Shown one piece after another: positions 1 to 13,124 of a DNA stretch of 13,124 nucleotides. Under the pieces are notes generated by a model. The model saw only the letters and a program-made list of their open reading frames with translations, ran no database searches and was not told the DNA's origin. How positions within the stretch are numbered: the first letter of the stretch is position 1; each line of letters opens with the position of its first letter. The translations under genes and the position numbers were made by a program. Source of the stretch: a virus; the UHGV virus genome UHGV-1724027, one strand, 5' to 3'.

Positions 1-518
1 TACATGTAGTTTATTTCAGGAGTAGGCTTTTTAGTTGGTAAAAAAGCAAATTTTGAGTTGGAATAATAATGACGTCCATTTAAATGAACTGTATATTCAT
101 CCATAGTTTTATCAACAGGATATCCTCCAAGTGATTTTTCACTTATTGTTGAAGGTAATCTTCCTTCGTATGCTATAATATCAACAAAATAGTTTAAGTT
201 TTTAGGGCGGAAAGAATACACCGCACTAAAGTCTGCCTCAGATGATATATGAACTATCTGGAGTTGTTCCAGGGCGACAGATTCAAAGCGTGCAGTTCTT
301 TCCTTTTCAATAATTTCACTGTATGTTTCATACTTTGATTGCTTATAGTACTCAAAGAAACTATCTCCCCTATACCAAACAATCGCCATCATAAATAAAA
401 GAATTACGACAGCTACCCGGGAAGCAAGAACCTTCCCAGTAGCGTTATCTTTGAACAAGCGATCTAGAACACCAAACAGAATATCAGAGGGCGAAAATGA
501 TATTCTAGGTGCTGCCAT
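1..518 (-). CDS. t: Holin T (gene t), 5' portion only; the ORF runs off the left edge of the window (about 172 of ~218 codons present)
   Basis: Minus-strand translation from ATG (complement of 516..518) reads MAAPRISFSPSDILFGVLDRLFKDNATGKVLASRVAVVILLFMMAIVWYRGDSFFEYYKQSKYETYSEIIEKERTARFE..., which matches my recollection of T4 holin T. A strong RBS (AAGGAGGG) sits 5 nt upstream. It is absent from the supplied ORF track because it is truncated by the window edge. Position directly downstream of gene 38 matches T-even gene order. Confidence 0.9.
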   Translation of the reverse strand, partial: MAAPRISFSPSDILFGVLDRLFKDNATGKVLASRVAVVILLFMMAIVWYRGDSFFEYYKQSKYETYSEIIEKERTARFESVALEQLQIVHISSEADFSAVYSFRPKNLNYFVDIIAYEGRLPSTISEKSLGGYPVDKTMDEYTVHLNGRHYYSNSKFAFLPTKKPTPEINYM

Positions 519-548
519 AGACCCTCCTTTTAAGGATATTTATTCAAA

Positions 549-1343
549 TTATACTCTTGCACCATATATTGTACCAACTTTAGTCCAAGTTGGAGCATTA
601 CCAGTAACAGCTTTACCAGCCGCACCGGGGGAGTTCGAATAGCCGCTCAATCTAACCGCATCCTTACCTCGTTCACCAACGTTACCGCCATCGCCGCCGT
701 AGTATCCAACGCCGGAATACATTTTTCCGCCTGCACCTGGAGATGTTAAAGATGCCGATGATCCCGGGGCTGCTGCGCCATTATTGCCACCAGCTCCGAA
801 AGGACGTCCACCGCCACCGCCAGAAACGTATTTACCTCCCCATCCATTATCAGTTGATTGGGCGCCACCACCGCCACCACCGCCAGCAATCGCTCCATTA
901 TTAGTGATTCGTAGACGAGTACCTATACCATTGTTAATTGCAGTACCGCCAGCTTGCCCTGCCTGGTTTCCCGCTTGCGCGCCACGACCACCACGACCAT
1001 ATACTGTTACGCCACCATTTATAATAAGCGTTACATAAGCATTAGTTAATGAACTAGGAAAATCTAAGCAAGGTTGCCCAGCTGATGAAGAAACAATATT
1101 TCCTGTAATAGTAACAACAACAGGAGTACTACCTTGAGATTTGAGATAATTTATTAGCGTGTCTTTATTATATGAATTACTAGCGCCAATACTGTAATAT
1201 ACTTCTTTAGATTGCCCAGCCATTGAACTCATCCAACCGGGAACTGAAACACGAACTGCTCTCATCGCAGCATCCATCCAACGTTGTCCAGTTTCATTCA
1301 CGGCAGATTCGCCAATCCAGCCAGGAACACCTACAATTGCCAT
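549..1343 (-). CDS. 38: gp38 receptor-recognising adhesin of the T2/T6 type (264 aa), with glycine-rich motifs alternating with short variable segments
   Basis: The N-terminus MAIVGVPGWIGESAVNETGQRWM resembles the conserved gp37-attachment domain of T2-like gp38 as I recall it. Residues ~109-227 are poly-Gly blocks (GRGGRG, GGGGGGG, GGGGGRPFGAGG, GGDGG) separated by short non-Gly inserts. ATG at complement of 1341..1343 with an AAGGA RBS. At 264 aa it fits T2-type gp38 (~260 aa), not the 183-aa T4 gp38 assembly chaperone. Confidence 0.9.
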   Translation of the reverse strand: MAIVGVPGWIGESAVNETGQRWMDAAMRAVRVSVPGWMSSMAGQSKEVYYSIGASNSYNKDTLINYLKSQGSTPVVVTITGNIVSSSAGQPCLDFPSSLTNAYVTLIINGGVTVYGRGGRGAQAGNQAGQAGGTAINNGIGTRLRITNNGAIAGGGGGGGAQSTDNGWGGKYVSGGGGGRPFGAGGNNGAAAPGSSASLTSPGAGGKMYSGVGYYGGDGGNVGERGKDAVRLSGYSNSPGAAGKAVTGNAPTWTKVGTIYGARV

Positions 1344-1354
1344 TAAAAATCCTT

Positions 1355-1372
1355 AGAGGGCCGAAGCCCTCT
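1355..1372 (-). other. Stable RNA hairpin with UUCG tetraloop in the 37-38 intergenic spacer (mRNA stem AGAGGGC-UUCG-GCCCUCU)
   Basis: Perfect 7-bp inverted repeat around a TTCG loop, read directly from the sequence. It lies immediately 3' of the gene 37 stop and is followed by AAGGA (the gene 38 RBS) and then TTTTT. Because the U-run is not adjacent to the stem, this is more likely an mRNA-stability or translation-modulating structure than a strong terminator. Confidence 0.55.
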
Positions 1373-1373
1373 T

Positions 1374-4300
1374 TTACATAAGTTTAGATTCAAGTTCTTT
1401 TACACGAGAAGAAAGTGTTTTCACAGCTTCAACCAGAAGAGCAATCTGGGATTGAGAAGAAACAGTGAGTATTTTATTACCCTTAATATCTTCAACTTCA
1501 CGAACTGCTTCTGGTAAAACATCTTGCAGTGTTTGAGCCACAATACCCGCTTCAGTTTGAACAATTTCACCGCCTATATAGTCAGCTTTATCATAGATTA
1601 AACCATCAAGCTGTTCAACCTTTTCAAGAGCATTTTCAATAGGTCTGAAATTAGATTTCAAACGAATATCAGAACGAATATAAACGTTTGGGGCATTTAT
1701 ATTCATGTCAGAATAAGTGTCACCCGTTTGGAATCTCATTCGGCGTGCGGCATTAGTAATGATATCAAGAACTCCGTCAGCGGATTGTTTAATTCCGGTA
1801 TCATTATCACCAAATGCTATACTATTTCCACCAAGTGCGTTATTGATATTAATACCAAATGAATTTGTTTGATTAATACCAGCTACAGTAGCATTATTTA
1901 CTACAAAGCGGTTAGCTCCACCTGGAGTCTTTTCAAAGTAAGCAATATAGTTAGTGTCATCGGCAATTTCAATGCGGTTACCGCGAGAAGCATCACCAGC
2001 ATGAAATATTCTCATATTTCTCGGGTTCGCACCGGACTTATCAAAGTTAATAGAACCATTATCTTTGACGTTTATGCTATTATAGAATAAAGCAGCGCTG
2101 CGAACAGCTATGCCATTATTCATCATCACTTCGCCGGTTGTTAAGTTAATTGCGAAAGGACGTTTACTATTCCAATCACCATTAACAGTTGCTGCGCCAT
2201 CGGTGGCATTTTTATCTGTAAACAGAATATAAAAACTGCCGCCGTCATTTCGTAACATTGTAGCCACAGAACCAGTTTTATCGGCATTGCTTCTGATACG
2301 AATACCGGTTTGGCTATTAATAGCTATTTCAGAATCGGCTTCATAACGCTTCACACCGTTAGGGGTAGGAGCCAAGTTGTTCAGAACACTAGCAACCTGT
2401 CCTTGAATAGCCGTCTCAGGAAGTTCAACCGCAGTTTCTGTTGCACCCGGTTGGTCCGTTGCAAATATCTGATTAATGGTAGCATTAGGAGTAGCATAAT
2501 AAGAAACTGCTAACGCCTGAGCATAAGTACCAACGTTTACATAGATGTCATAAACATCGCCTGATGTATTGACCGTTGCAACATTCTTAATACCCTGACC
2601 GATATCCATCGACCAAACAACAGCGTTAATACCTTTCGGGTTATTGTTCGAAGTTCTTAAAACAATTTTCGAAGTAACGCATTGGTGTGGGGTGTTGACA
2701 TTATATCCATTACCACCAGCAATTTCGAATGTGACGGTTGAAGTGGATTGTGGCATTGTTACAGTGGCTAATTTATACCAACCGCCAGTACCTGAATAAG
2801 AAACCATTCGGGTATTGACTTTACGGTCTAGTGTCAAGTTCAAGTTAGCAAAGTTAGGTAATGAACCGCCCGTGATATTACCGTCAGTACCAATACGAAC
2901 CGTACCAGCGCCTAATTTACCAGGGGAAATAAAATCACCGGTTCTATTGAATTCCCACCCGAAGTCCTTAATTAAAGGGCCCGTCGAATCATTATCACCA
3001 CCTTCATGATAATGAACTCTAAAGTTACCACCATTAATTAGAGTTCCTAAAGAATAACAGCTATTTCCTTGAACATATCGTTGTTTCAAAATAGGAACAT
3101 ATGTACTAGTATCAGTTCTATCAATATTCATATAGAACGGCGCACGTACATTTTCATTATTTTGGGAAGCAAAAGAACCCGCTCCGGCCGGACGTGCTCT
3201 ATCAGTACATTCTGCATCAATGTATGCCGACTGACCTATCTGCATTCTGAAATTAGGAGAAATGCGACTATTACTAGTAACAACAACAAGTTTGTTATCA
3301 TTGTCCACTGTAATCATATTACCGCCAGCACCATCGTCACCTAACGTGACAGAATGACGCATTTGCACCATACCATTATTAAGGCTGATACTTAATGGGC
3401 GAAGATTACTTATTCCGCCAGATTCACCTGCATCTTTAGGAGTTGGAATAATATGCAATGCCGCCTCTGAACGACGGAAAATAGCACCGTATTCAGCATT
3501 CCAAATTCTTAATGCATCTGCCGTTCCACCGAATTTAGCCTGACCATTTACAGATAATCCATTATTTGCAACTAAACTTGATTCAGTAACAATAGAACCA
3601 GATGATGTAATACCACCAGAAGTTAATAAACCACCATTAACTCGAAATTGAATAGGTCCGACGGTAGAACCTGATCCGGGAGCAACTCGTTGAGAATAAA
3701 AATGGTAACCTTGTCCATCTGATACTTCAAAAACTGTTTCACGGGAACGATCGCCAGAAGCGTTAAATGAATTACCCCATGCTTTAACAGTTACATAGCT
3801 TTTATTCTGACCAGCACGAGTACCGCCTTCCCACAAAATTTGCTTAGTGCCATCAATTGTAGTAGTTGGAGCGAATGTTAGCCCAGCAGTAGAATTATTA
3901 GCTGCTAAATATATGCCGTTATATATTGAAAGCTGCTTAACAGATGTAATACCGCCATCAGCATAAAACATTACATTATTAGAGCCAGTTACCAATTTCA
4001 AAATACCCGGGTTAACTTCCATGCCTTCTTGAGTATTAATATTAGTTTTTCCTTTACCACGGAAATAGTGGTTCATTTTTCCGCCAGAATTATATCCAAT
4101 ATGGGTTTGACCGTCTCCAGCAGTGTTTTCATCAGCCTGTGTTTGAACCGATAAAAACGCGGCGTTCGTTCCAGGCATATTCCATGTTCCGCCTTGGTCT
4201 TCTGAACGTCCAAATAATGCTTTACGAGTACTACGGAAACTGTCAGGAGTAATAGACGCGATAGAAAGACCATTAGCAACTAAATCATATACACCAGATC

Positions 4301-5285
4301 TTTTATATGATACACCAGTTGCGGCATCTCCAATGACTATATAGCATTCACCCATTGCTCCAGTGGAGCCGTAATTATTAATGTTTTCATCTGTTGTAAT
4401 TGTACCAATTGCGAGTGAGCGTCGCAACACTAAAGACCCATCATTGCGAAGGCCCATTTGTTTATTAACGGCTGTATTACCGGTCCACCAAGACAGTTCA
4501 TCACTTTTTCCGGTTTGTGCAGAAGCTAATTCATGATAAATCGTACCACCAGATTTTGCACGGAATTTACGAAGGTAATTAATTCCGTTTGTTTCACCAG
4601 TTCCAGGATAAACATATTGAACTAATGACTGCGAATCGTATTGTCCAAATGCTTTTGTGTCAAATACTATAGTCTTTGTATTGATTTGCGGAGCAGAAAC
4701 TACCCCAGTAGCCGAATTAATATTACCAGAAGCAGAAATATTTCCATCTGTTACTGTCAAACTTCCTGTATCAACAACAAATCCACCATCTCTACGAAAT
4801 GTCCAGTATTTTGAAGTTCCCGATTCGTTGATATAATGAATTTTAAAACTACCTTCGTTTACTAACGTACCAACAGAAAAAGTTCCATCTTTATAGCGTT
4901 GTTTAATCAGCGGATGATATTCTGAAACGGAAGTAGTTGAGCTCAAATCTGTAAAGACAGGAGCTTTATTTAGGTGTTGATTTGCCCATGCACCATTACC
5001 AGCTGTTTTAGGTAAAAATTCAATATATTTTCCTGCATAAACAAACTGATTTCCATTGAGATTATATGTACCGTTCTGTAAATAATCTCCAGTTTGTGTG
5101 ATATTTCCACTGATATTACCGCCAGCGGAAATGCTTAAATCAATGATATTTCCTGAATCATCTTTAGTAAAAATTGTTCTATCTTTTAAGTTTATAGCCA
5201 ATTCGCCTTCGGCTAATACTGAAGCAGCAGGACGTGCACCTGCGGTTTTGCTTCTTTTAAATTGTATTTGTTTTAAAGTAGCCAT
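1374..5285 (-). CDS. 37: gp37, long tail fiber distal subunit (1303 aa); T4-like N-terminal and central parts, with a C-terminal self-cleaving chaperone module
   Basis: N-terminus [48 protein letters not shown] matches my recollection of T4 gp37. The internal segment [31 protein letters not shown] parallels a segment of gp34. The C-terminus carries the motif S-D-I-R-L-K. ATG at complement of 5283..5285 preceded by a GAGGA RBS, 8 nt after the gene 36 stop. Confidence 0.95.
1377..1670 (-). other. Predicted C-terminal intramolecular chaperone / autoproteolytic module of gp37 (peptidase S74-like), C-terminal 98 residues; predicted cleavage between Ser1205 and Asp1206
   Basis: The motif ...NVYIRS|[34 protein letters not shown]... 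is seen in the translation. It resembles the S-D-x-R-L-K signature that I associate with self-cleaving chaperone domains of phage fibers and tailspikes (K1F endosialidase, T5 pb1). The exact cleavage site is an inference. Confidence 0.6.
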
Positions 5286-5293
5286 AAGTCCTC

Positions 5294-5953
5294 TTAATAA
5301 TAGCCGAAATCTTGAACAGAATCCTTAATTACGATTTGGTCAAATCGCGGAACGTGTGAAGGTTGAGATGCAGGATTCTGTGAGAAAAAGTTTGGTGCGG
5401 TTAAGTTTCCAGTCATAGTGTCTCCTTTACGGAAAACTCTAGAATCCGCATTTGCCGTAACAGTATTTATTGCTCCATCAACATAGTCCTTTCTAGTAAG
5501 GTCATTCGCTGCTATAGGAGCAGCTGCATCACTTCTTACTTGACCTGCTGCCGACACAACACCTTTTGTACTAATATCACCATTACGTGTATTAATTACC
5601 ACAGTTCGGGCTGCTGAACCTTGCGATGATTTAAAACCAATACCATACCACGAAACAATATCCATATTTGTAGTATCATACGTGGCATTATCGCCAGGAC
5701 CAGCAAAAATACCATTGTCACCTGATCCTGCGCCAGGAACAGTCATTCCTTTATTAAAAATTACTTTATTTAAATATGTACCACCATTAGCTTTAGAAAC
5801 GAAATCGTTATCAACAGCTTGTGGTTTATTATATTCTGAATATATTTTAAATGATTTATAGAGTACATCGTCACCGGCTGGATTCAATGGAAAATTTCCT
5901 TGATGCCAAATGACAGAGCCTCCAGTTGTTGAACCTACTTTTAAATCAGCCAT
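5294..5953 (-). CDS. 36: gp36, long tail fiber distal connector (hinge) protein (219 aa)
   Basis: Size and position between genes 35 and 37 match T4 gp36 (221 aa). It is directly preceded by a late promoter box and an RBS, and its stop is 8 nt from the gene 37 start. Confidence 0.9.
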
Positions 5954-5976
5954 TGTATGCCCCTTTATTTTAATAG

Positions 5977-5984
5977 TATTTATA
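5977..5984 (-). promoter_or_regulatory. T4-type late promoter box TATAAATA (minus strand), upstream of gene 36
   Basis: Exact match to the T4 late-promoter consensus TATAAATA on the minus strand (plus-strand TATTTATA), about 25 nt upstream of the gene 36 ATG and immediately after the 35-36 terminator. Confidence 0.75.
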
Positions 5985-6010
5985 AAGAAAAAGGGAACCC
6001 GAAGGCTCCC
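5985..6010 (-). terminator. Rho-independent terminator between genes 35 and 36 (mRNA stem GGGAGCC-UUCG-GGUUCCC followed by UUUUUCUU)
   Basis: A 7-bp stem (one G-U pair) with a UUCG tetraloop, followed directly by a T-rich run on the minus strand, starting 5 nt after the gene 35 stop. Confidence 0.7.
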
Positions 6011-6015
6011 TCAAT

Positions 6016-7131
6016 TTATACTTCTCTAAATTCTTGCCCAAACACTTTACCAGTTTTAGACGATGCTTGTGTAGGAAGTACCATTATATCCGGAGGTGAA
6101 GCAGATTCACAGATATAATTAACACGAATACCATTGACGCCAAATTCAGCAGGTTTTGAAATACCGCCGTTTCTTGATACTTCAGAAAAGCTTAAATTTC
6201 TCATGCCACCTTGGCCAGCTTGTGCAGTTCTTTGTGCATATATCGTAAATCCTACAGCGTTTTCTGGAACAACTACATAATCTTCCTTTAATTCCCATGA
6301 CCCAGCTTGTCCAGTAAATTCAGCCTGTGTTGAAGAAATATATCCGTTAGATGCATTATAAAATCGAATGGATATATTCGTAGTTCCAAGAGCAAGTAAA
6401 TCAGCATCAGCATATAACTGAGCTTTAAGATAAAGAACATCACCAGGAATTAAATTATAATCAGATAATTTACTTATAGCAGCTGAAGTTGGTAGACGCG
6501 CAATTTCGTTATTAGTTCCACCAACCGCTGACATAAATTGCTCAACGCTTTCATACGTTCTTCTTGGAAACCCGGTAGCTCCGACATCTTCTAAACTGTC
6601 AAATACAACATCTAAAATAGTTTGATAATCATCTGTGCTTTTTCTATTACTTAATTTAACATGCTCTAATGCGATAGCTCTTTTAGAAGAAGTATAAAAA
6701 GCAGCATATGATACGTCGAATCTTGACAATATAGAATCAGATGGAAAAGCAGACGTTCCGGCGGTTCTTAACCAAGATACTACTTCAGGAGGAAAATTAA
6801 CCTTTCCGTTAGTTAATATAGCAACAATTCGATTATTCGTCAAAGAATTCATAAAACTAACAAAAGCAGCTGATGTAGTATCATTTGAAGTCGAAAAAGC
6901 ATATGACTTACTATCAACTAATGCTCCGGTGGAAGGGTCAAAAACTCTTAAATGAAGGCCTGCGCTAAATGTTTGACTTCCTACAGGATTATCCTGAAAT
7001 TTAACGTATGGTCCTGCAGTAGAAAGCGGGCAAGAACCCGCTATGCTTATTTTATATCTTACTGAATTGCTTTCCGATAAAAACGGCGTTTGGACATATC
7101 CTTGTCCAAACTCTGCCATAAATTTTTCCAT
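6016..7131 (-). CDS. 35: gp35, long tail fiber hinge protein joining proximal and distal half-fibers (371 aa)
   Basis: Size (371 aa against 372 in T4) and position between 34 and 36. An AAGAGG RBS lies in the 8-nt spacer after the gene 34 stop. Confidence 0.9.
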   Translation of the reverse strand: MEKFMAEFGQGYVQTPFLSESNSVRYKISIAGSCPLSTAGPYVKFQDNPVGSQTFSAGLHLRVFDPSTGALVDSKSYAFSTSNDTTSAAFVSFMNSLTNNRIVAILTNGKVNFPPEVVSWLRTAGTSAFPSDSILSRFDVSYAAFYTSSKRAIALEHVKLSNRKSTDDYQTILDVVFDSLEDVGATGFPRRTYESVEQFMSAVGGTNNEIARLPTSAAISKLSDYNLIPGDVLYLKAQLYADADLLALGTTNISIRFYNASNGYISSTQAEFTGQAGSWELKEDYVVVPENAVGFTIYAQRTAQAGQGGMRNLSFSEVSRNGGISKPAEFGVNGIRVNYICESASPPDIMVLPTQASSKTGKVFGQEFREV

Positions 7132-7139
7132 AATACCTC

Positions 7140-9785
7140 TTATTCAACCCATTCAAATTTAACCGTTTTATTCACTGGGTCAGGAATAATGCGAACATTA
7201 CCAATTCGCAAGAAATCACGAATAGTAAGATTCCCCATTGTAGCATTATCAGATGGTAAAGCACCGATATCAGATGGTTGAGGAGGGTTACCTCCGTCAA
7301 ATACCTGAACAAAACTTGACCAAGAGTTTTTGGTTTTCTGCCATGTACGTGTCCAGCGAGTGGTACGCGCTTCTGGCGTCGTTGGATAAGTAATCCAATC
7401 TTGGTAAAGCGAATCAAGTGTGTTACCAAACTGAGTCAGTGTACCAGGAGATTTAACTTCTTCGCCACGTTCTAAGTATGGAAGCCCAGTCACTTCATTA
7501 GTTTTTTCAACCATTTTAAAATAACCCGGGAACTGGTTATAAGTGGCTGAATCGTTAATATCGATTGACCAGAATCCTACAGTATCAGATGTTGGCGCAC
7601 GGGTGTATAAATCAGATGTTTTAGTACCCTGAGAACGAATTCTCGAGTTAACAGTTAAACCACCTGAATTTATAGTAGCACCTTTGGCAATGATTAAGCC
7701 TTCACCAATCGTAACCTGACCAGATGCATTATTAATAGCTAAAGGACGTAATCCATTAAATCCGCCAGTCTGATCACCAGATGCAGTAAGCATAAAATAG
7801 GTATTAGCAGCATCATTGCGAATAAAGAATCCGTAATCACCACTAATTGCTCTAAATGCATTTGCAGACTTGCTAATGAATTCACCATTGGCTGTAACTG
7901 AACGACCGAATGTTGCAACACCATTCACATTCATCAAACCGGAAGCATTAATATTTATTGGCATCACAGTACCATTAATGCTAAACGCTATATTACCGTC
8001 TTTATTACGTTGAGAATAAAAGTGATTAGACGTTTCATCACCAACTTCAAATACAGTAGAACGTGTTGTATCTGAACCGCCGCCAAACTGATTTCCCCAA
8101 ACTCTGATAGTCATCGTCTGTGCTGGGTTAGTTCCAGTTTGAGGTCCTTTCTCAAAAATCAGACGAGTTGCAGTTCCAGTATTAGAAATAGTTAATGTGC
8201 TGTTTGCCGAAACTGATCCGCCAAACGTAGCAGTACTAGATGATACAAGAGGGGCACTCAGATTCGTTTGTTGGGTTAAGGTTAGTGAACCATTAACCGT
8301 CTGTGCAATATCCCTACGAATGAACTGAGATGAATCTAGACCATCCAATAAATTACTATCTACAGCTTTTGCTTTTAATGGCAAATAATTTGCTAATACA
8401 CGGTTTAATTCATATGGTGATACTGCATAGCTATTTTTCTCGTATAGCTCTAAGTCCTGCGTAGAACCAGCTGTATCATTACCAACAAATGTAATTGAAC
8501 CAGATGAAGTTTTAACAAAGCCTCTTATCGCAGTAGTAGCTGCCCAAGTAGGTTCACTCTGCACAATCCATTTTAAATTTTTTGGAGATACAGCAGTATT
8601 TGCTGATGTTCCAGTCACAGTTTCAGACTGAGTTGCAACTTTAATAACACCTTCTTGCGATTCGGTAGATTTAGTACCTAAAAGCTTTTTAGGAGTTATT
8701 AAAACATTATCTAATGTTCCTGCAGCAGCTTCAACCTGTGTAGCTACACGAAGTGTACCACGCTGTGTCTCATTTGCTTCAAGAATATTAAGGGTATAAT
8801 GGTCCCAGAGAGTTCCTGATTCAACTAATCCAGATAGAGCAACAACAGAAGTACGATCAGTACTATTAAATCTGGTTTTAATTTTTAATGGTGTAGAGAT
8901 ACGAGTATCGTCGACGCCTGCGTCGAATTCAACTTGTGTAGCAATTTCAGCTATACCACTTAAACTTTCAGTTGCTCTACGGTCATTTAAAGTTTTAGGA
9001 GTGACTGCACGAGTATAATCAGTTCCTGTATTAACTTCACTTTGCGTAGCAATTTCAATTAAACCAATTCTTCCATCGGTTGATGTCTTTTTATGTAACG
9101 TTTCTGGCGTTACAACAGCATTTGCCCATCCTTCCTGACTTTGTCCAGCAATTACTTCACTTTCAACTGCTAAAATTACTGCACCTTGCTGCGTTGGAGT
9201 AGCTTTATACTGATCCAAAGCTTTAGGTGAAACAACTAAATTATTAGTGTTTTTATTATAAACATTCGTACCATTTAATTCACGGCTAGAAGCTGGAGTA
9301 GCACCTGCAGTAGATACAAAAGTTACAATACCAGATAATGATTCAGAACCTTGACGAGCTTGAAGCTTTTTAGGAGTGATGATTGTAGTGTCATCAGTAC
9401 CTGTATTAGTTTCCTGCTGCGTAGCAATTTCTGCGACACCTCTGCGAGTTTCTGTAGCAGTTCTTTCATTCAGCTTTTTAGGAGTGATGATAAGGTCATC
9501 AGCAAAAGAGAATGTGGTGTTCTGATTCACTTGAGCAGTAGTTGCTATTCTTGCGATACCTCTGCGAGTTTCAGTAGCAGTACGGTTAGCTAATGTTTCT
9601 GGAGTAATTGCTAATTCTTTTTGTGGAGAATTTTCTAAATCGACGTTAGCTTGAGCTTGTGTAGCTAAAGCAATTACGCCTAATCTTGCTCTAGTAGAAT
9701 CATTTAAAGAATCTACTCTTTCGACAGTTGGAACGTTTTGCTGTACAACCCAATATTTTCCATCAGAATCTTCAATATAAGCAAG
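7140..9785 (-). CDS. 34: gp34, long tail fiber proximal subunit: C-terminal ~881 codons, in a different frame from the N-terminal part because of a 1-nt frameshift
   Basis: The supplied ORF 7140..9530 starts at a GTG only because there is no in-frame start codon further upstream. I translated this frame by hand upstream to ~9785 and it stays open, reading LAYIEDSDGKYWVVQQNVPTVERVDSLNDSTRARLGVIALATQAQANVDLENSPQKELAITPETLANRTATETRRGIARIATTAQVNQNTTFSFADD..., a plausible continuation of gp34. The C-terminus ...KTVKFEWVE matches my recollection of T4 gp34. Confidence 0.85.
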   Translation of the reverse strand, partial: LAYIEDSDGKYWVVQQNVPTVERVDSLNDSTRARLGVIALATQAQANVDLENSPQKELAITPETLANRTATETRRGIARIATTAQVNQNTTFSFADDLIITPKKLNERTATETRRGVAEIATQQETNTGTDDTTIITPKKLQARQGSESLSGIVTFVSTAGATPASSRELNGTNVYNKNTNNLVVSPKALDQYKATPTQQGAVILAVESEVIAGQSQEGWANAVVTPETLHKKTSTDGRIGLIEIATQSEVNTGTDYTRAVTPKTLNDRRATESLSGIAEIATQVEFDAGVDDTRISTPLKIKTRFNSTDRTSVVALSGLVESGTLWDHYTLNILEANETQRGTLRVATQVEAAAGTLDNVLITPKKLLGTKSTESQEGVIKVATQSETVTGTSANTAVSPKNLKWIVQSEPTWAATTAIRGFVKTSSGSITFVGNDTAGSTQDLELYEKNSYAVSPYELNRVLANYLPLKAKAVDSNLLDGLDSSQFIRRDIAQTVNGSLTLTQQTNLSAPLVSSSTATFGGSVSANSTLTISNTGTATRLIFEKGPQTGTNPAQTMTIRVWGNQFGGGSDTTRSTVFEVGDETSNHFYSQRNKDGNIAFSINGTVMPININASGLMNVNGVATFGRSVTANGEFISKSANAFRAISGDYGFFIRNDAANTYFMLTASGDQTGGFNGLRPLAINNASGQVTIGEGLIIAKGATINSGGLTVNSRIRSQGTKTSDLYTRAPTSDTVGFWSIDINDSATYNQFPGYFKMVEKTNEVTGLPYLERGEEVKSPGTLTQFGNTLDSLYQDWITYPTTPEARTTRWTRTWQKTKNSWSSFVQVFDGGNPPQPSDIGALPSDNATMGNLTIRDFLRIGNVRIIPDPVNKTVKFEWVE
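8700..9700 (-). repeat. Imperfect tandem repeats within gene 34, encoding repeated (A/I)-E-I-A-T-Q...T-G-T-D...I-T-P-K-K-L units
   Basis: Near-identical DNA copies are visible: TGCGACACCTCTGCGAGTTTCTGTAGCAGT (9432..9461) and TGCGATACCTCTGCGAGTTTCAGTAGCAGT (9552..9581), 120 bp apart. AGCTTTTTAGGAGTGATGAT occurs at 9364..9383 and 9472..9491. A motif of the form TG(C/T)GTAGCAATTTC recurs near 8937, 9046 and 9414. The protein shows at least six matching peptide repeats. Confidence 0.7.
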
Positions 9786-11008
9786 TTGTAAACTGGAACA
9801 TAATTAGTTTCACCGTTAAAAACTAATTCTTGGACTGTAACCCATTCAGCTTCAGGCGGATATTCTGAGCGTTTTGGGAATTGCAGTAATTGAACTGAAG
9901 AAGCAATTTTATCTTCACCGGCAGCTTTGATTTTAACTGTTTGTCCTTTTCTCATGTAATTCATGGAAATTTTAACAGTATCACCAACAGAAATATCAGT
10001 AGGAAGCTGAAGCTCAATTGTTTGGGTTGTTCCGTTATTCGCACCAAATACCATAACTTCTTCGTTTGGACGAATATTAGAATTAGTCGTTATAATGCGT
10101 AAACGCGCTTTACTATCCCCGTCAAACAATCTCCACAATTTCTCATTATCATCAAACATCAAGAAACCGTCAATCGATGTACGGCCTTCAATGGAATGAG
10201 TTCCAACTTCTTGTACTGAAGTCGTTTCATCGTATGTAGTAACAATTGTATGATAAAGTGGATTTAGTTTATCTAAATCGACGAAATTAATAATATCTCC
10301 ATGATTAGCAAATCTCGGAAGTTTAATATTTATCGGTGCAGCAGAAGTAAATCTACGCACGATAAAATCATTAGATTGCGCTTGATAAGTATTCGCTGGT
10401 GTTACAACTACAGCTTCTCTACTATAATCAGCTACATACATTTGCCACAGACGATTACTAAAAATTAAAACTAGCTGTGACTTTGGATGAGTCATTAGTA
10501 CTGAACGTACCTGTTCACCTCTAAAGTTTACAATACTTTGCACTGGAGCTACAATTAAAACTTGGTTAACTCCAGGTTTTCCTCCAATATCTTGGAGAAC
10601 GATAGTATCACCGTCAATTGGGGTAGATGGTAAAGTAAATGTAATATCATTACCAGCTGCAGTGTTAACCGAAATAGCTTCACCGGATTTTAATTGATAT
10701 GAACCAGATGAGACTGTAATCCAGTTAGCATCGGTACGTAATGCTCTCCAGCGTCCGCTATTAAAAGCTCCTGCCGGTTTTGGAATATCATTTATAGCAG
10801 CCCAAAAGCGGTTATCATAAATGATTACAAAATCTTTTAAATATCCACGAGTTGGATCGTATTGTTGAACTGTGTTTTCTTGAATTAAGTAATCAACGTT
10901 AACACCGTCAGTTCCTACGGTACGATCAGCTAAAGCTACGTTGATTATTTTATCGCCACCTGCGTCCAGACCATCTTCTGCTCTGAACTTTCTTTTAATC
11001 TCGGCCAT
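9713..11008 (-). CDS. 34: gp34, long tail fiber proximal subunit: N-terminal fragment (431-aa ORF; first ~406 aa native, last 25 aa out-of-frame read-through to a TAG)
   Basis: N-terminus MAEIKRKFRAEDGLDAGGDKIINVALADRTVGTDGVNVDYLIQENTVQQYDPTRGYLKDF... matches my recollection of T4 gp34. After ...ETNYVPV the translation becomes low-complexity (YNLLILKILMENIGLYSKTFQLSKE*) while the -1 frame continues the fibre sequence. 406 + 2 + 881 = 1289 codons, the known length of T4 gp34. Confidence 0.85.
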   Translation of the reverse strand: MAEIKRKFRAEDGLDAGGDKIINVALADRTVGTDGVNVDYLIQENTVQQYDPTRGYLKDFVIIYDNRFWAAINDIPKPAGAFNSGRWRALRTDANWITVSSGSYQLKSGEAISVNTAAGNDITFTLPSTPIDGDTIVLQDIGGKPGVNQVLIVAPVQSIVNFRGEQVRSVLMTHPKSQLVLIFSNRLWQMYVADYSREAVVVTPANTYQAQSNDFIVRRFTSAAPINIKLPRFANHGDIINFVDLDKLNPLYHTIVTTYDETTSVQEVGTHSIEGRTSIDGFLMFDDNEKLWRLFDGDSKARLRIITTNSNIRPNEEVMVFGANNGTTQTIELQLPTDISVGDTVKISMNYMRKGQTVKIKAAGEDKIASSVQLLQFPKRSEYPPEAEWVTVQELVFNGETNYVPVYNLLILKILMENIGLYSKTFQLSKE

Positions 11009-11042
11009 TCTCCCGGGCTCCTATTGTGTTTTCAATAATAAG

Positions 11043-11050
11043 TATTTATA
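11043..11050 (-). promoter_or_regulatory. T4-type late promoter box TATAAATA (minus strand), upstream of gene 34
   Basis: Exact TATAAATA on the minus strand, about 35 nt upstream of the gene 34 ATG. An AGGAG RBS lies between the box and the start codon. Confidence 0.75.
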
Positions 11051-11053
11051 CTT

Positions 11054-11083
11054 GTTTACTTTAAGATTTGGATGGTATATAAT
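11054..11083 (+). promoter_or_regulatory. Putative sigma70/T4 early-type promoter for rnh (-35 GTTTAC at 11054..11059; -10 TATAAT at 11078..11083; 18-nt spacer)
   Basis: GTTTAC followed 18 nt later by TATAAT, about 30 nt upstream of the rnh ATG. This resembles the T4 early-promoter pattern as I recall it. It partly overlaps the divergent late promoter for gene 34. Confidence 0.4.
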
Positions 11084-11112
11084 AGAAATCTCACTAATTG
11101 AACGAGGTTCAT

Positions 11113-12030
11113 ATGGATTTAGAAATGATGTTGGATGAAGATTACAAAGAAGGAATTTGCTTTATTGACTTTAGTCAAATTGCGCTTTCAACTGCTTTAG
11201 TAAACTTCCCAGATAAAGAAAAAATTAATTTATCAATGGTTCGTCATTTGATATTGAACTCAATTAAGTTTAATGTCAAAAAAGCAAAAACGCTTGGATA
11301 CACTAAAATTGTACTGTGTATTGATAACGCGAAATCTGGATACTGGCGTCGTGATTTCGCTTATTATTATAAGAAAAACCGTGGAAAAGCACGAGAAGAA
11401 TCTACTTGGGACTGGGAAGGTTATTTTGAATCCAGCCATAAAGTTATAGATGAATTGAAAGCTTATATGCCATACATTGTTATGGATATTGATAAGTATG
11501 AAGCGGATGACCACATTGCTGTTTTGGTTAAAAAGTTCTCTTTAGAAGGACATAAGATTTTAATCATTTCATCGGATGGTGACTTTACACAGCTTCACAA
11601 ATACCCAAATGTTAAGCAATGGTCACCGATGCACAAGAAATGGGTTAAAATTAAAAGCGGTTCTGCTGAAATTGACTGTATGACTAAAATCCTTAAAGGC
11701 GACAAAAAGGATAACGTTGCTTCAGTTAAAGTACGATCTGACTTCTGGTTTACCAGAGTTGAAGGTGAACGAACTCCTTCAATGAAAACATCAATCGTTG
11801 AAGCTATTGCTAATGACCGTGAGCAAGCTAAGGTGCTTCTCACAGAATCTGAATATAATCGTTATAAAGAAAATTTAGTTCTAATTGATTTTGATTATAT
11901 TCCTGATAATATTGCTTCAAACATTGTGAATTACTATAATTCATATAAATTACCACCGCGTGGCAAAATTTATTCATATTTTGTAAAAGCGGGTCTTTCT
12001 AAATTAACTAATAGCATTAATGAATTTTGA
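11113..12030 (+). CDS. rnh: RNase H (5'-3' exonuclease / flap endonuclease, FEN family), 305 aa
   Basis: Translation MDLEMMLDEDYKEGICFIDFSQIALSTALVNFPDKEKINLSMVRHL... matches my recollection of T4 RNase H. The supplied ORF begins at a TTG at 11098; the ATG at 11113 with a GAGGT RBS 5 nt upstream gives the expected 305 aa. Confidence 0.93.
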   Translation: MDLEMMLDEDYKEGICFIDFSQIALSTALVNFPDKEKINLSMVRHLILNSIKFNVKKAKTLGYTKIVLCIDNAKSGYWRRDFAYYYKKNRGKAREESTWDWEGYFESSHKVIDELKAYMPYIVMDIDKYEADDHIAVLVKKFSLEGHKILIISSDGDFTQLHKYPNVKQWSPMHKKWVKIKSGSAEIDCMTKILKGDKKDNVASVKVRSDFWFTRVEGERTPSMKTSIVEAIANDREQAKVLLTESEYNRYKENLVLIDFDYIPDNIASNIVNYYNSYKLPPRGKIYSYFVKAGLSKLTNSINEF

Positions 12031-12038
12031 GGTGAATA

Positions 12039-12308
12039 ATGGCTAAAAAAGAAGTGGTTGAATTTGATGAAGCTATCCATGGCGAAGACTTGGCTAAATT
12101 TATTAAAGAAGCATCTGATCATAAACTGAAAATTTCCGGTTATAATGAACTGATTAAAGATATTCGAATTCGTGCCAAAGATGAACTTGGTGTTGATGGT
12201 AAGATGTTTAATCGTCTATTAGCTTTGTATCATAAAGATAATCGTGATGTGTTTGAAGCTGAAACTGAAGAGGTAGTTGAACTTTATGACACAGTTTTCT
12301 CTAAATGA
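12039..12308 (+). CDS. dsbA: DsbA, double-stranded DNA-binding protein (89 aa)
   Basis: An 89-aa acidic/basic small protein immediately downstream of rnh, matching T4 dsbA in size and position. ATG at 12039 with a GAGGTGA RBS. Confidence 0.85.
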   Translation: MAKKEVVEFDEAIHGEDLAKFIKEASDHKLKISGYNELIKDIRIRAKDELGVDGKMFNRLLALYHKDNRDVFEAETEEVVELYDTVFSK

Positions 12309-12624
12309 TATTCGTCCGGTCGATGAGACCGGTCTTTCAGAAAAAGAACTTTCAATTAAGAAAGAAAAGGATGAAATAGCAAAGCTTCTTGATCGTCAAG
12401 AAAATGGATTTATTATTGAAAAAATGGTAGAAGAGTTTGGAATGAGTTATCTTGAAGCTACGACAGCATTCTTGGAAGAAAATTCTATTCCTGAAACTCA
12501 ATTTGCTAAATTTATTCCTTCGGGTATAATTGAAAAAATTCAGTCAGAAGCTATTGACGAAAATCTTTTACGTCCTTCTGTTGTTCGTTGTGAAAAAACT
12601 AATACATTAGATTTTCTACTATGA
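12286..12624 (+). CDS. 33: gp33, late-transcription accessory protein (sigma co-activator), 112 aa
   Basis: Translation MTQFSLNDIRPVDETGLSEKELSIKKEKDEIAKLLDRQENGFIIEKMVEEFGMSYLEATTAFLEEN... matches my recollection of T4 gp33. The ATG at 12286 lies inside the 3' end of dsbA (23-nt overlap) and gives 112 aa; the supplied ORF starts earlier at a TTG at 12277. Confidence 0.9.
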   Translation: MTQFSLNDIRPVDETGLSEKELSIKKEKDEIAKLLDRQENGFIIEKMVEEFGMSYLEATTAFLEENSIPETQFAKFIPSGIIEKIQSEAIDENLLRPSVVRCEKTNTLDFLL

Positions 12625-13124
12625 TTAAACTCCGCATGCCTGCTGGTGGTGAAAGATACATTGATGGTAAATCAGTTTATAAATTATACTTAATGATAAA
12701 ACAACACATGAATGGAAAGTATGATGTAATTAAGTATAATTGGTGCATGCGGGTGTCTGATGCCGCTTATCAAAAGCGAAGGGATAAGTATTTTTTCCAG
12801 AAGTTATCAGAAAAATATAAATTAAAGGAACTTGCTTTAATCTTTATAAGTAATTTGGTTGCTAACCAAGATGCTTGGATTGGTGACATCTCTGACGCTG
12901 ATGCACTTGTGTTTTATCGTGAATATATCGGACGCTTAAAACAAATTAAATTTAAGTTTGAAGAAGATATTCGCAACATTTATTATTTTAGTAAAAAAGT
13001 TGAAGTTTCTGCTTTTAAAGAAATCTTTGAGTATAATCCAAAGGTTCAATCAAGCTATATTTTTAAACTACTTCAATCGAATATAATTTCATTTGAGACG
13101 TTTATCTTGCTTGATTCATTTTTA
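12621..13124 (+). CDS. 59: gp59, helicase loader (loads the gp41 helicase), 5' portion only; the ORF runs off the right edge of the window (168 codons present of ~217)
   Basis: Translation MIKLRMPAGGERYIDGKSVYKLYLMIKQHMNGKYDVIKYNWCMRVSDAAYQKRRDKYFFQKLSEKYKLKELALIFISNLVANQDAWIGDISDADALVFYREYIGRLKQIKFKFEEDIRNIYYFSKKVEVSAFKEIFEYNPKVQSSYIFKLLQSNIISFETFILLDSF matches my recollection of T4 gp59. Its ATG overlaps the gene 33 stop (ATGA). It is absent from the ORF track because it is truncated by the window edge. Confidence 0.9.
   Translation, partial: MIKLRMPAGGERYIDGKSVYKLYLMIKQHMNGKYDVIKYNWCMRVSDAAYQKRRDKYFFQKLSEKYKLKELALIFISNLVANQDAWIGDISDADALVFYREYIGRLKQIKFKFEEDIRNIYYFSKKVEVSAFKEIFEYNPKVQSSYIFKLLQSNIISFETFILLDSFL

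What the first reader, a model, noticed from the sequence alone, without database searches (positions are those of the whole stretch)
9783..9805. Gene 34 (proximal long tail fiber) is interrupted by an apparent single-nucleotide deletion
The gp34 reading frame changes between codons ~406 and ~409 (minus-strand ...GTT CCA GTT TAC AAC TTG CTT..., plus 9786..9790). The N-terminal frame ends 25 codons later at TAG (9713..9715). The rest of gp34 continues without a stop in the -1 frame down to 7140, and that frame is closed by a TAA just upstream of the junction. Adding one nucleotide restores a single 1289-codon ORF, the length of T4 gp34. Five nucleotides lie between the last codon shared by both frames and the first clear downstream codon, where two codons are expected. 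gp34 is essential for long tail fibers, so this is either an assembly or homopolymer error (the AA at the junction could be a shortened AAA), or a genuine tail-fiber-defective mutant, or, much less likely, a recoding site.
Basis: partly seen in the sequence, partly recalled or inferred. Interest (0 to 1): 0.6.

Follow-up and report, generated by a model that had tools for sequence, protein, structure and literature searches.

The report
Tail-fibre gene frameshift is assembly artefact
The one-base "deletion" that splits the long-tail-fibre gene 34 of this T4-like phage falls exactly where two metagenome contigs were joined, so it is almost certainly an assembly error and not biology.

Summary
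Gene 34 (minus strand, 11008..7140) is 3869 nt, one short of 1290 codons. It reads as a 431-codon ORF ending at TAG 9713-9715, followed by an open -1 frame down to 7140. Alignment to T4 and its relatives shows a single indel in 3870 columns: one T is missing from the run TTTT in GTT CCA GTT TTA CAA, and the window has TTT at 9792..9790. None of 299 matching phage records scores 99% or more, as an identical record carrying the deletion would. All 60 sampled records have the extra base. The junction string is absent from three contig collections.

Two public metagenome assemblies of the same sequence both break at this base. Contig L009 is 100% identical over 9788 nt and begins at the TTT. Scaffold L008 reads GTTCCAGT + 10 N + TTTACAAC. 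Concatenating its two contigs gives TTTT and an intact 1289-codon gene. The window equals the same two contigs merged with a 1-nt overlap.

The downstream frame is a live coding sequence: 48 synonymous against 5 non-synonymous codon changes versus the nearest relative, plus the gp34 Pfam domains. There is no slippery heptamer. Verdict: an assembly-join artefact, not a real feature, and of low interest.

The parts
7140..11008 (-). Gene 34 (long tail fibre proximal subunit), 3869 nt as given; 3870 nt (1289 codons plus stop) in every relative examined
   Evidence: Repaired protein is 99.4% identical to ESh33 gp34 and 96.3% to T4 gp34.
9790..9792 (-). TTT run where relatives have TTTT (codons GTT|TTA, Val406-Leu407). 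Base 9792 is the single base shared by the two joined contigs.
9713..11008 (-). N-terminal ORF as it reads in the window: 406 authentic gp34 codons, 25 out-of-frame codons, then TAG (9715..9713)
7140..9788 (-). Downstream -1 frame: authentic gp34 residues 408-1289 plus stop, carrying Pfam Gp34_trimer and Gp34_2nd
9804..9806 (-). TAA that closes the downstream frame just upstream of the junction. With TAG 9713-9715 it bounds the roughly 90-nt zone in which the frame change must lie.
9792..13124 (.). Segment identical to the left contig of public scaffold L008 (L008 54..3386, which ends ...GTTCCAGT before 10 N)
5..9792 (.). Segment 100% identical, without gaps, to public contig L009 (all 9788 nt), whose first bases are the TTT of the junction

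Best explanation
The window is a metagenome-assembled piece of a Tequatrovirus (T4-like) genome carrying t', 38, 37, 36, 35, 34 on the minus strand and rnh, dsbA, 33, 59' on the plus strand. Gene 34 is not interrupted in the phage. The window was built by joining two contigs that end and begin inside the run G-TTTT-A. The left contig ends ...CCAGT and the right contig begins TTTACAAC.... The join treated the terminal T of one contig and the first T of the other as a 1-nt overlap, which gives TTT instead of TTTT and a -1 shift of frame. Shown here: the site is a contig boundary in two public assemblies of the identical sequence; plain concatenation restores the conserved sequence and the 1289-codon ORF; and the deletion is unique to the window. 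Inferred: that no read spans the site, and which software made the join.
For: (1) One search found two public contigs that encode the window's exact gp37. Searches compared them with the window. L009 (ENA ERZ27334065 k115_121195) is 100% identical over all 9788 nt and starts exactly at the TTT. L008 (ENA ERZ28657847 ...METAG-scaffold_3377) matches the window up to ...GTTCCAGT, then has 10 N (its only N run), then TTTACAAC.... The window differs from L008 there by exactly 11 bases, the 10 N plus one T.
(2): the only indel in 3870 aligned columns is this T. T4, PhiZZ6, ESh33, JK1, SHBML-50-1, PhiZZ23 and Solly all have TTTT.
(3): none of 299 matching phage records reaches 99% identity, as an identical record with the deletion would. 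All 60 records sampled across the ranking span one base more than the query.
(4): 17 fetched loci carry the TTTT form and none the TTT form.
(5): all 15 contigs found by the RNase H and gp36 look-ups encode a 1289-aa gp34.
(6): the junction string is absent from the viral, genome and metagenome contig collections.
(7): downstream of the junction there are 48 synonymous against 5 non-synonymous codon differences from ESh33, and a synonymous majority against ten further relatives. The 'out-of-frame' 882 codons are therefore a selected coding sequence. One search finds the Gp34_trimer and Gp34_2nd domains there.
(8): PhiZZ6 is identical to the window from gene nt 1021 to 1589 apart from the missing T, so the two contigs fit seamlessly.
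(9): the window has 205 homopolymer runs of 4 or more bases (11 of length 6). Within gene 34 this 4-run is the only place with an indel against three relatives, and the other genes keep intact reading frames. That pattern fits a sequencer homopolymer error less well than a join error.
Against: The public assemblies show that the site is a contig end, not how many Ts the reads carry. A true TTT with contigs overlapping by one base is formally as compatible with L008 and L009 as a true TTTT with abutting contigs. The choice between them rests on conservation and selection. I could not see reads. I could not establish that L008, L009 and the window come from the same read set. L009's name implies k=115, which is longer than I would expect for the reads behind L008. 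If the read sets are independent, a break at the same base would suggest a sequence-specific cause, such as a real TTT/TTTT polymorphism forming an unresolved bubble. In that case, however, L008's left contig should end in ...CCAGTTT, and it ends in ...CCAGT.
Confidence: 0.85

Rival explanations
1. A read-level error: a homopolymer miscount or a low-coverage consensus error in the reads, with TTTT read as TTT, and no joining error. The gene is still intact in the phage.
For: The lost base lies in a homopolymer. The contig ends shared by three assemblies suggest low coverage.
Against: A 4-base run is a weak target. The window holds 58 longer runs, and none of those in coding sequence breaks a reading frame.
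Confidence: 0.07
2. A genuine one-base deletion in gene 34 in part or all of the sampled phage population, giving a tail-fibre-defective genome that encodes a 431-aa truncated product.
For: The sequence as given. A TTT/TTTT polymorphism could in principle cause the assembly graph to break at this run, and L009 begins exactly with the suffix TTTACAAC that both alleles share.
Against: The allele is absent from the phage records checked and from three contig collections. The downstream frame shows no decay. From established T4 genetics (my own knowledge, not tested here), gene 34 mutants make fibreless, non-infectious particles, so such a genome could not be the propagating majority. Under a bubble, L008's left contig should end in CCAGTTT, not CCAGT. 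One-base bubbles are also normally merged by assemblers (my own knowledge).
Confidence: 0.06
3. Programmed recoding: a -1 ribosomal frameshift or transcriptional slippage restores full-length gp34 from the two frames.
For: A -1 shift anywhere in the roughly 90-nt overlap between TAA 9804-9806 and TAG 9713-9715 would give a protein of about 1289 aa.
Against: There is no X XXY YYZ heptamer in any phase within the overlap. A T3 run is far too short for transcriptional slippage (my own knowledge). Every relative examined encodes gp34 in a single frame, so no recoding signal is conserved. The site coincides with a contig join.
Confidence: 0.01

Closest known systems
Bacteriophage T4 gene 34 / gp34 (long tail fibre proximal subunit, 1289 aa; NC_000866 150809-154678)
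   Same: Same position in the rnh | 34-35-36-37-38-t module. Colinear over the whole length, with 96.3% amino-acid identity after adding the one T. Same length. Gp34_trimer and Gp34_2nd domains are present.
   Different: As given, the window's copy lacks one T of the TTTT run at gene nt 1217-1220, which splits the ORF.
Gene 34 of Shigella phage ESh33, Escherichia phage JK1 and Citrobacter phage PhiZZ6 (nearest deposited Tequatrovirus relatives)
   Same: 97.0-97.5% nucleotide identity over the gene. PhiZZ6 is identical for about 570 nt around the junction.
   Different: All are 3870 nt with TTTT. The window as a whole is a distinct strain, at most about 95% identical over 13 kb, mainly because of genes 37 and 38.
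Scaffold-gap and contig-join artefacts in short-read metagenome assemblies
   Same: The frameshift lies at the exact base where a public scaffold of the same sequence has a 10-N gap and where another public contig begins. The same public scaffold has a second mis-join, with 67 nt of gene 35 lost between AG...AG.
   Different: In the window the gap has been closed silently, with no N, so the error looks like a mutation.

Membership tests
T4-type gp34 (long tail fibre proximal subunit) | C-terminal Gp34_trimer (PF21446) and Gp34_2nd (PF21560) domains | tested here: met
   E = 8e-34 and 9e-38, both in the downstream frame 7143-9788
T4-type gp34 (long tail fibre proximal subunit) | Full-length colinearity with T4 gp34 (1289 aa) | tested here: met
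   after adding one T the protein is 1289 aa, 96.3% identical to T4 and 99.4% to ESh33, with no other indel
T4-type gp34 (long tail fibre proximal subunit) | Synteny: divergent from rnh and followed by genes 35, 36, 37, 38, t | tested here: met
T4-type gp34 (long tail fibre proximal subunit) | A single uninterrupted reading frame | tested here: not met
   split at 9790-9792 in the window as given. This is attributed to the assembly and not to the phage.
Assembly join / scaffold-gap artefact | The anomaly coincides with a contig end in other assemblies of the same sequence | tested here: met
   L009 starts at the TTT, and L008 has its only N run (10 N) there
Assembly join / scaffold-gap artefact | Flanks are otherwise seamless, and plain concatenation of the contigs gives the conserved sequence | tested here: met
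Assembly join / scaffold-gap artefact | No sequencing read spans the join | not testable with these tools
   Raw reads are not available here
Programmed -1 ribosomal frameshift site | Slippery heptamer X XXY YYZ within the zone where both frames are open | tested here: not met
   none in any phase in gene nt 1201-1296
Programmed -1 ribosomal frameshift site | The two-frame arrangement is conserved in relatives | tested here: not met
   every relative examined has a single frame
Programmed -1 ribosomal frameshift site | Downstream stimulatory RNA structure | not tested
   Not pursued once the two features above failed
Pseudogene / inactivating mutation | The same lesion is seen in independent sequences | tested here: not met
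Pseudogene / inactivating mutation | Relaxed selection downstream of the lesion | tested here: not met
   48 synonymous against 5 non-synonymous codon changes versus ESh33. A very recent mutation would not show relaxation either, so this excludes only an old lesion.

The most novel reading that the evidence does not exclude
The TTT allele is real in the sampled gut phage population. It would be a frameshifted gene 34 carried at appreciable frequency, for example as defective genomes complemented by co-infecting wild type, or rescued by low-level -1 slippage. The repeated assembly break at this base would then reflect that polymorphism.
Probability: 0.05. Interest if true: 0.4.

Novelty: not a real feature. 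Interest (0 to 1): 0.04.

Why it matters
It matters only as quality control. A silently closed scaffold gap can look like a loss-of-function mutation or a recoding site in an essential phage gene. Annotation or host-range inference from this contig should treat gene 34 as intact (1289 aa). Metagenome-derived viral contigs of this kind should be checked for frameshifts at contig joins. Nothing new follows for tail-fibre biology.

Tried and rejected
- Exact-pattern scans for the TTT junction in viral contigs, genome contigs and metagenome contigs found nothing. The deletion has no independent occurrence, and the window's own source is not in those collections.
- Exact look-ups of the 431-aa product and of the repaired 1289-aa gp34 found neither in the collection. 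I could therefore not find a same-strain contig that spans the junction.
- Look-ups with RNase H, gp36 and gp38 returned only other strains, because these proteins are too conserved. All of those strains have an intact gene 34.
- A literature search for the sample accession returned nothing. Reading the record name 'ZELL14-1' as a 2014 human-gut study is my guess only.
- A scan for -1 slippery heptamers found none.
- I tested whether the join is chimeric, with a change of nearest relative at the junction. It is not: PhiZZ6 is identical on both sides for hundreds of bases.
- I rejected a sequencer homopolymer error as the main cause. The window has 58 longer runs, no other gene has a broken frame, and no assembled read sequence crosses the site in L008 or L009.

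Full report
**1. What the window is.** The 13,124-nt window is a stretch of a T4-like (Tequatrovirus) genome. On the minus strand it carries:
- a partial holin gene t (518..1);
- gene 38, a T2-type adhesin (549-1343; Pfam GP38 and Gp38_N);
- gene 37 (1374-5285; 1303 aa with a C-terminal Peptidase_S74 chaperone domain);
- gene 36 (5294-5953);
- gene 35 (6016-7131);
- gene 34 (7140-11008).

On the plus strand it carries rnh (11113-12030), dsbA, gene 33 and the start of gene 59. This matches the annotation of ESh33, JK1, Solly and T4. No deposited phage is the same strain. The best whole-window matches are about 94-95% identical, and gene 34 alone is at most 97.5% identical.

Gene 34 is 3869 nt.
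- Frame 0 from the ATG at 11008 is open for 431 codons, to TAG at 9715..9713.
- The -1 frame is closed by TAA at 9806..9804 and is then open for 882 codons, to the stop at 7142..7140.
- Frame 0 has 59 stops beyond the junction.
- Adding one base gives 1289 codons, the length of T4 gp34 (PMC5537660).

**3. Which base is missing.** Alignment with PhiZZ6, SHBML-50-1, JK1, PhiZZ23, ESh33, Solly and T4 shows one indel in 3870 columns. The relatives read GTT CCA GTT TTA CAA (T4: GTT CCA GTT TTG GAG). The window reads GTTCCAG-TTT-ACAA. One T of a TTTT run is therefore absent, and the window has TTT at 9792..9790.

**4. The deletion is unique to the window.**
- An 80-nt query centred on the site matched 299 phage records. 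None reached 99% identity, as an identical record with the deletion would.
- In a sample of 60 records spread over the whole ranking, every record spans exactly one base more than the query.
- Seventeen fetched loci contain GTNCCAGTTTTRCA, and none contains the TTT form.
- All 15 contigs found through the RNase H and gp36 look-ups encode a 1289-aa gp34.
- The junction string is absent from the viral, genome and metagenome contig collections.

**5. The decisive result.** Looking up the window's exact gp37 found two public metagenome records.
- **L009** (ENA ERZ27334065, k115_121195, 9788 nt) is 100% identical to the window without gaps. Its first bases are the TTT of the junction (window 9792), and it runs to window position 5.
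- **L008** (ENA ERZ28657847, ZELL14-1_SAMEA2467067_METAG-scaffold_3377, 13,117 nt) is identical to the window from window 13124 down to 9792. There it reads ...GTTCCAGT, followed by its only run of N (10 N, L008 3387-3396), followed by TTTACAACTT....
- The gene calls stored for L008 (415 aa and 890 aa, overlapping across the N run) show that the Ns are part of the deposited record.

The position of the 'deletion' is therefore a contig boundary in both assemblies. Removing the Ns from L008 gives GTTCCAGTTTTACAAC, which is the conserved sequence with an intact frame. The window differs from L008 here by 11 bases, the 10 N plus one T. So the window equals the same two contigs merged as if their terminal T and initial T were a one-base overlap. 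L008 and the window also end at the same base (window position 1), and L009 ends 4 nt short of it. This suggests that contig ends are set by where reads stop, as happens with a low-coverage genome. That last point is an inference.

**6. The downstream frame is alive.** Compared with ESh33, the 882 codons after the junction carry 48 synonymous and 5 non-synonymous codon changes. Ten other relatives also show a synonymous majority. The downstream frame contains the Gp34_trimer and Gp34_2nd domains. PhiZZ6 is identical to the window from gene nt 1021 to 1589 except for the missing T, so the nearest relative does not change at the join.

**7. Rivals.**
- **Sequencer homopolymer error.** This is possible but less likely. 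The window has 205 runs of 4 or more bases, including 47 of length 5 and 11 of length 6. This 4-run is the only indel in gene 34, and no other gene has a broken frame. No assembled read sequence crosses the site in L008 or L009.
- **A real deletion.** This cannot be excluded without reads, because the public contigs do not fix the number of Ts. It is disfavoured by its uniqueness and by the intact selection signature. It is also disfavoured by the textbook requirement of gp34 for infective particles, which is my own knowledge. Finally, L008's left contig ends in CCAGT, whereas a TTT/TTTT bubble would leave CCAGTTT.
- **Programmed -1 frameshifting.** This fails two defining tests. There is no X XXY YYZ heptamer in the two-frame overlap, and the arrangement is not conserved in any relative.

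**8. Verdict.** The interruption of gene 34 is an assembly-join artefact: a silently closed scaffold gap with a spurious 1-nt overlap. My confidence in that specific cause is about 0.85. The probability that the feature is not biological, from a join error or a read error, is about 0.92. The gene should be read as an intact 1289-codon gene 34. Interest is low.

Noticed in passing
window 6581-6649 (gene 35); L008 about 6538-6539: Public scaffold L008 lacks 67 nt of gene 35 that are present in the window and in L009. The loss is flanked by AG...AG and splits gp35 into 169-aa and 172-aa calls. It looks like a second mis-join in that deposited scaffold and supports the view that this genome was assembled from sparse reads.
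   Followed up: partly
window 1 and 13124; L008 and L009 ends: Window position 1 is also the last base of L008, and L009 stops 4 nt short of it. At the other end L008 extends 53 nt beyond the window. The shared ends suggest that all three are assemblies of one read set and that the window is a whole contig. L009's name implies k=115, which I could not reconcile with that.
   Followed up: partly
window 549-1343 (gene 38) and L020 (Logan ERR13995192_1459): The window's 264-aa gp38 adhesin occurs with an identical sequence in a different T4-like phage, whose gp37 is 1267 aa and gp34 is 1290 aa. This is an example of adhesin-module exchange between strains.
   Followed up: no
window 1374-5285 (gene 37): gp37 (1303 aa) carries a C-terminal Peptidase_S74 intramolecular-chaperone domain and an internal weak Gp34_trimer-like match. 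It is followed by a T2-type gp38 adhesin, not the T4-type gp38 assembly chaperone.
   Followed up: no
about 90 nt downstream of the junction in gene 34 (L022 693-702, against the T run at about L022 609-612): The phage GiZh and Kha5h records annotate an 'ori type 2 repeat' inside gene 34 near the junction region. T4's oriG (ori34) is annotated further downstream, at gene nt 2139. I found no link to the frameshift.
   Followed up: no
gene 34, window 7140-11008: The nearest relative changes along the gene. JK1 is closest in the first 1.2 kb (15 differences) and ESh33 is closest afterwards. Clusters of differences lie around gene nt 2400-3400. This is the usual T4-like mosaicism, and the change is not located at the junction.
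   Followed up: partly
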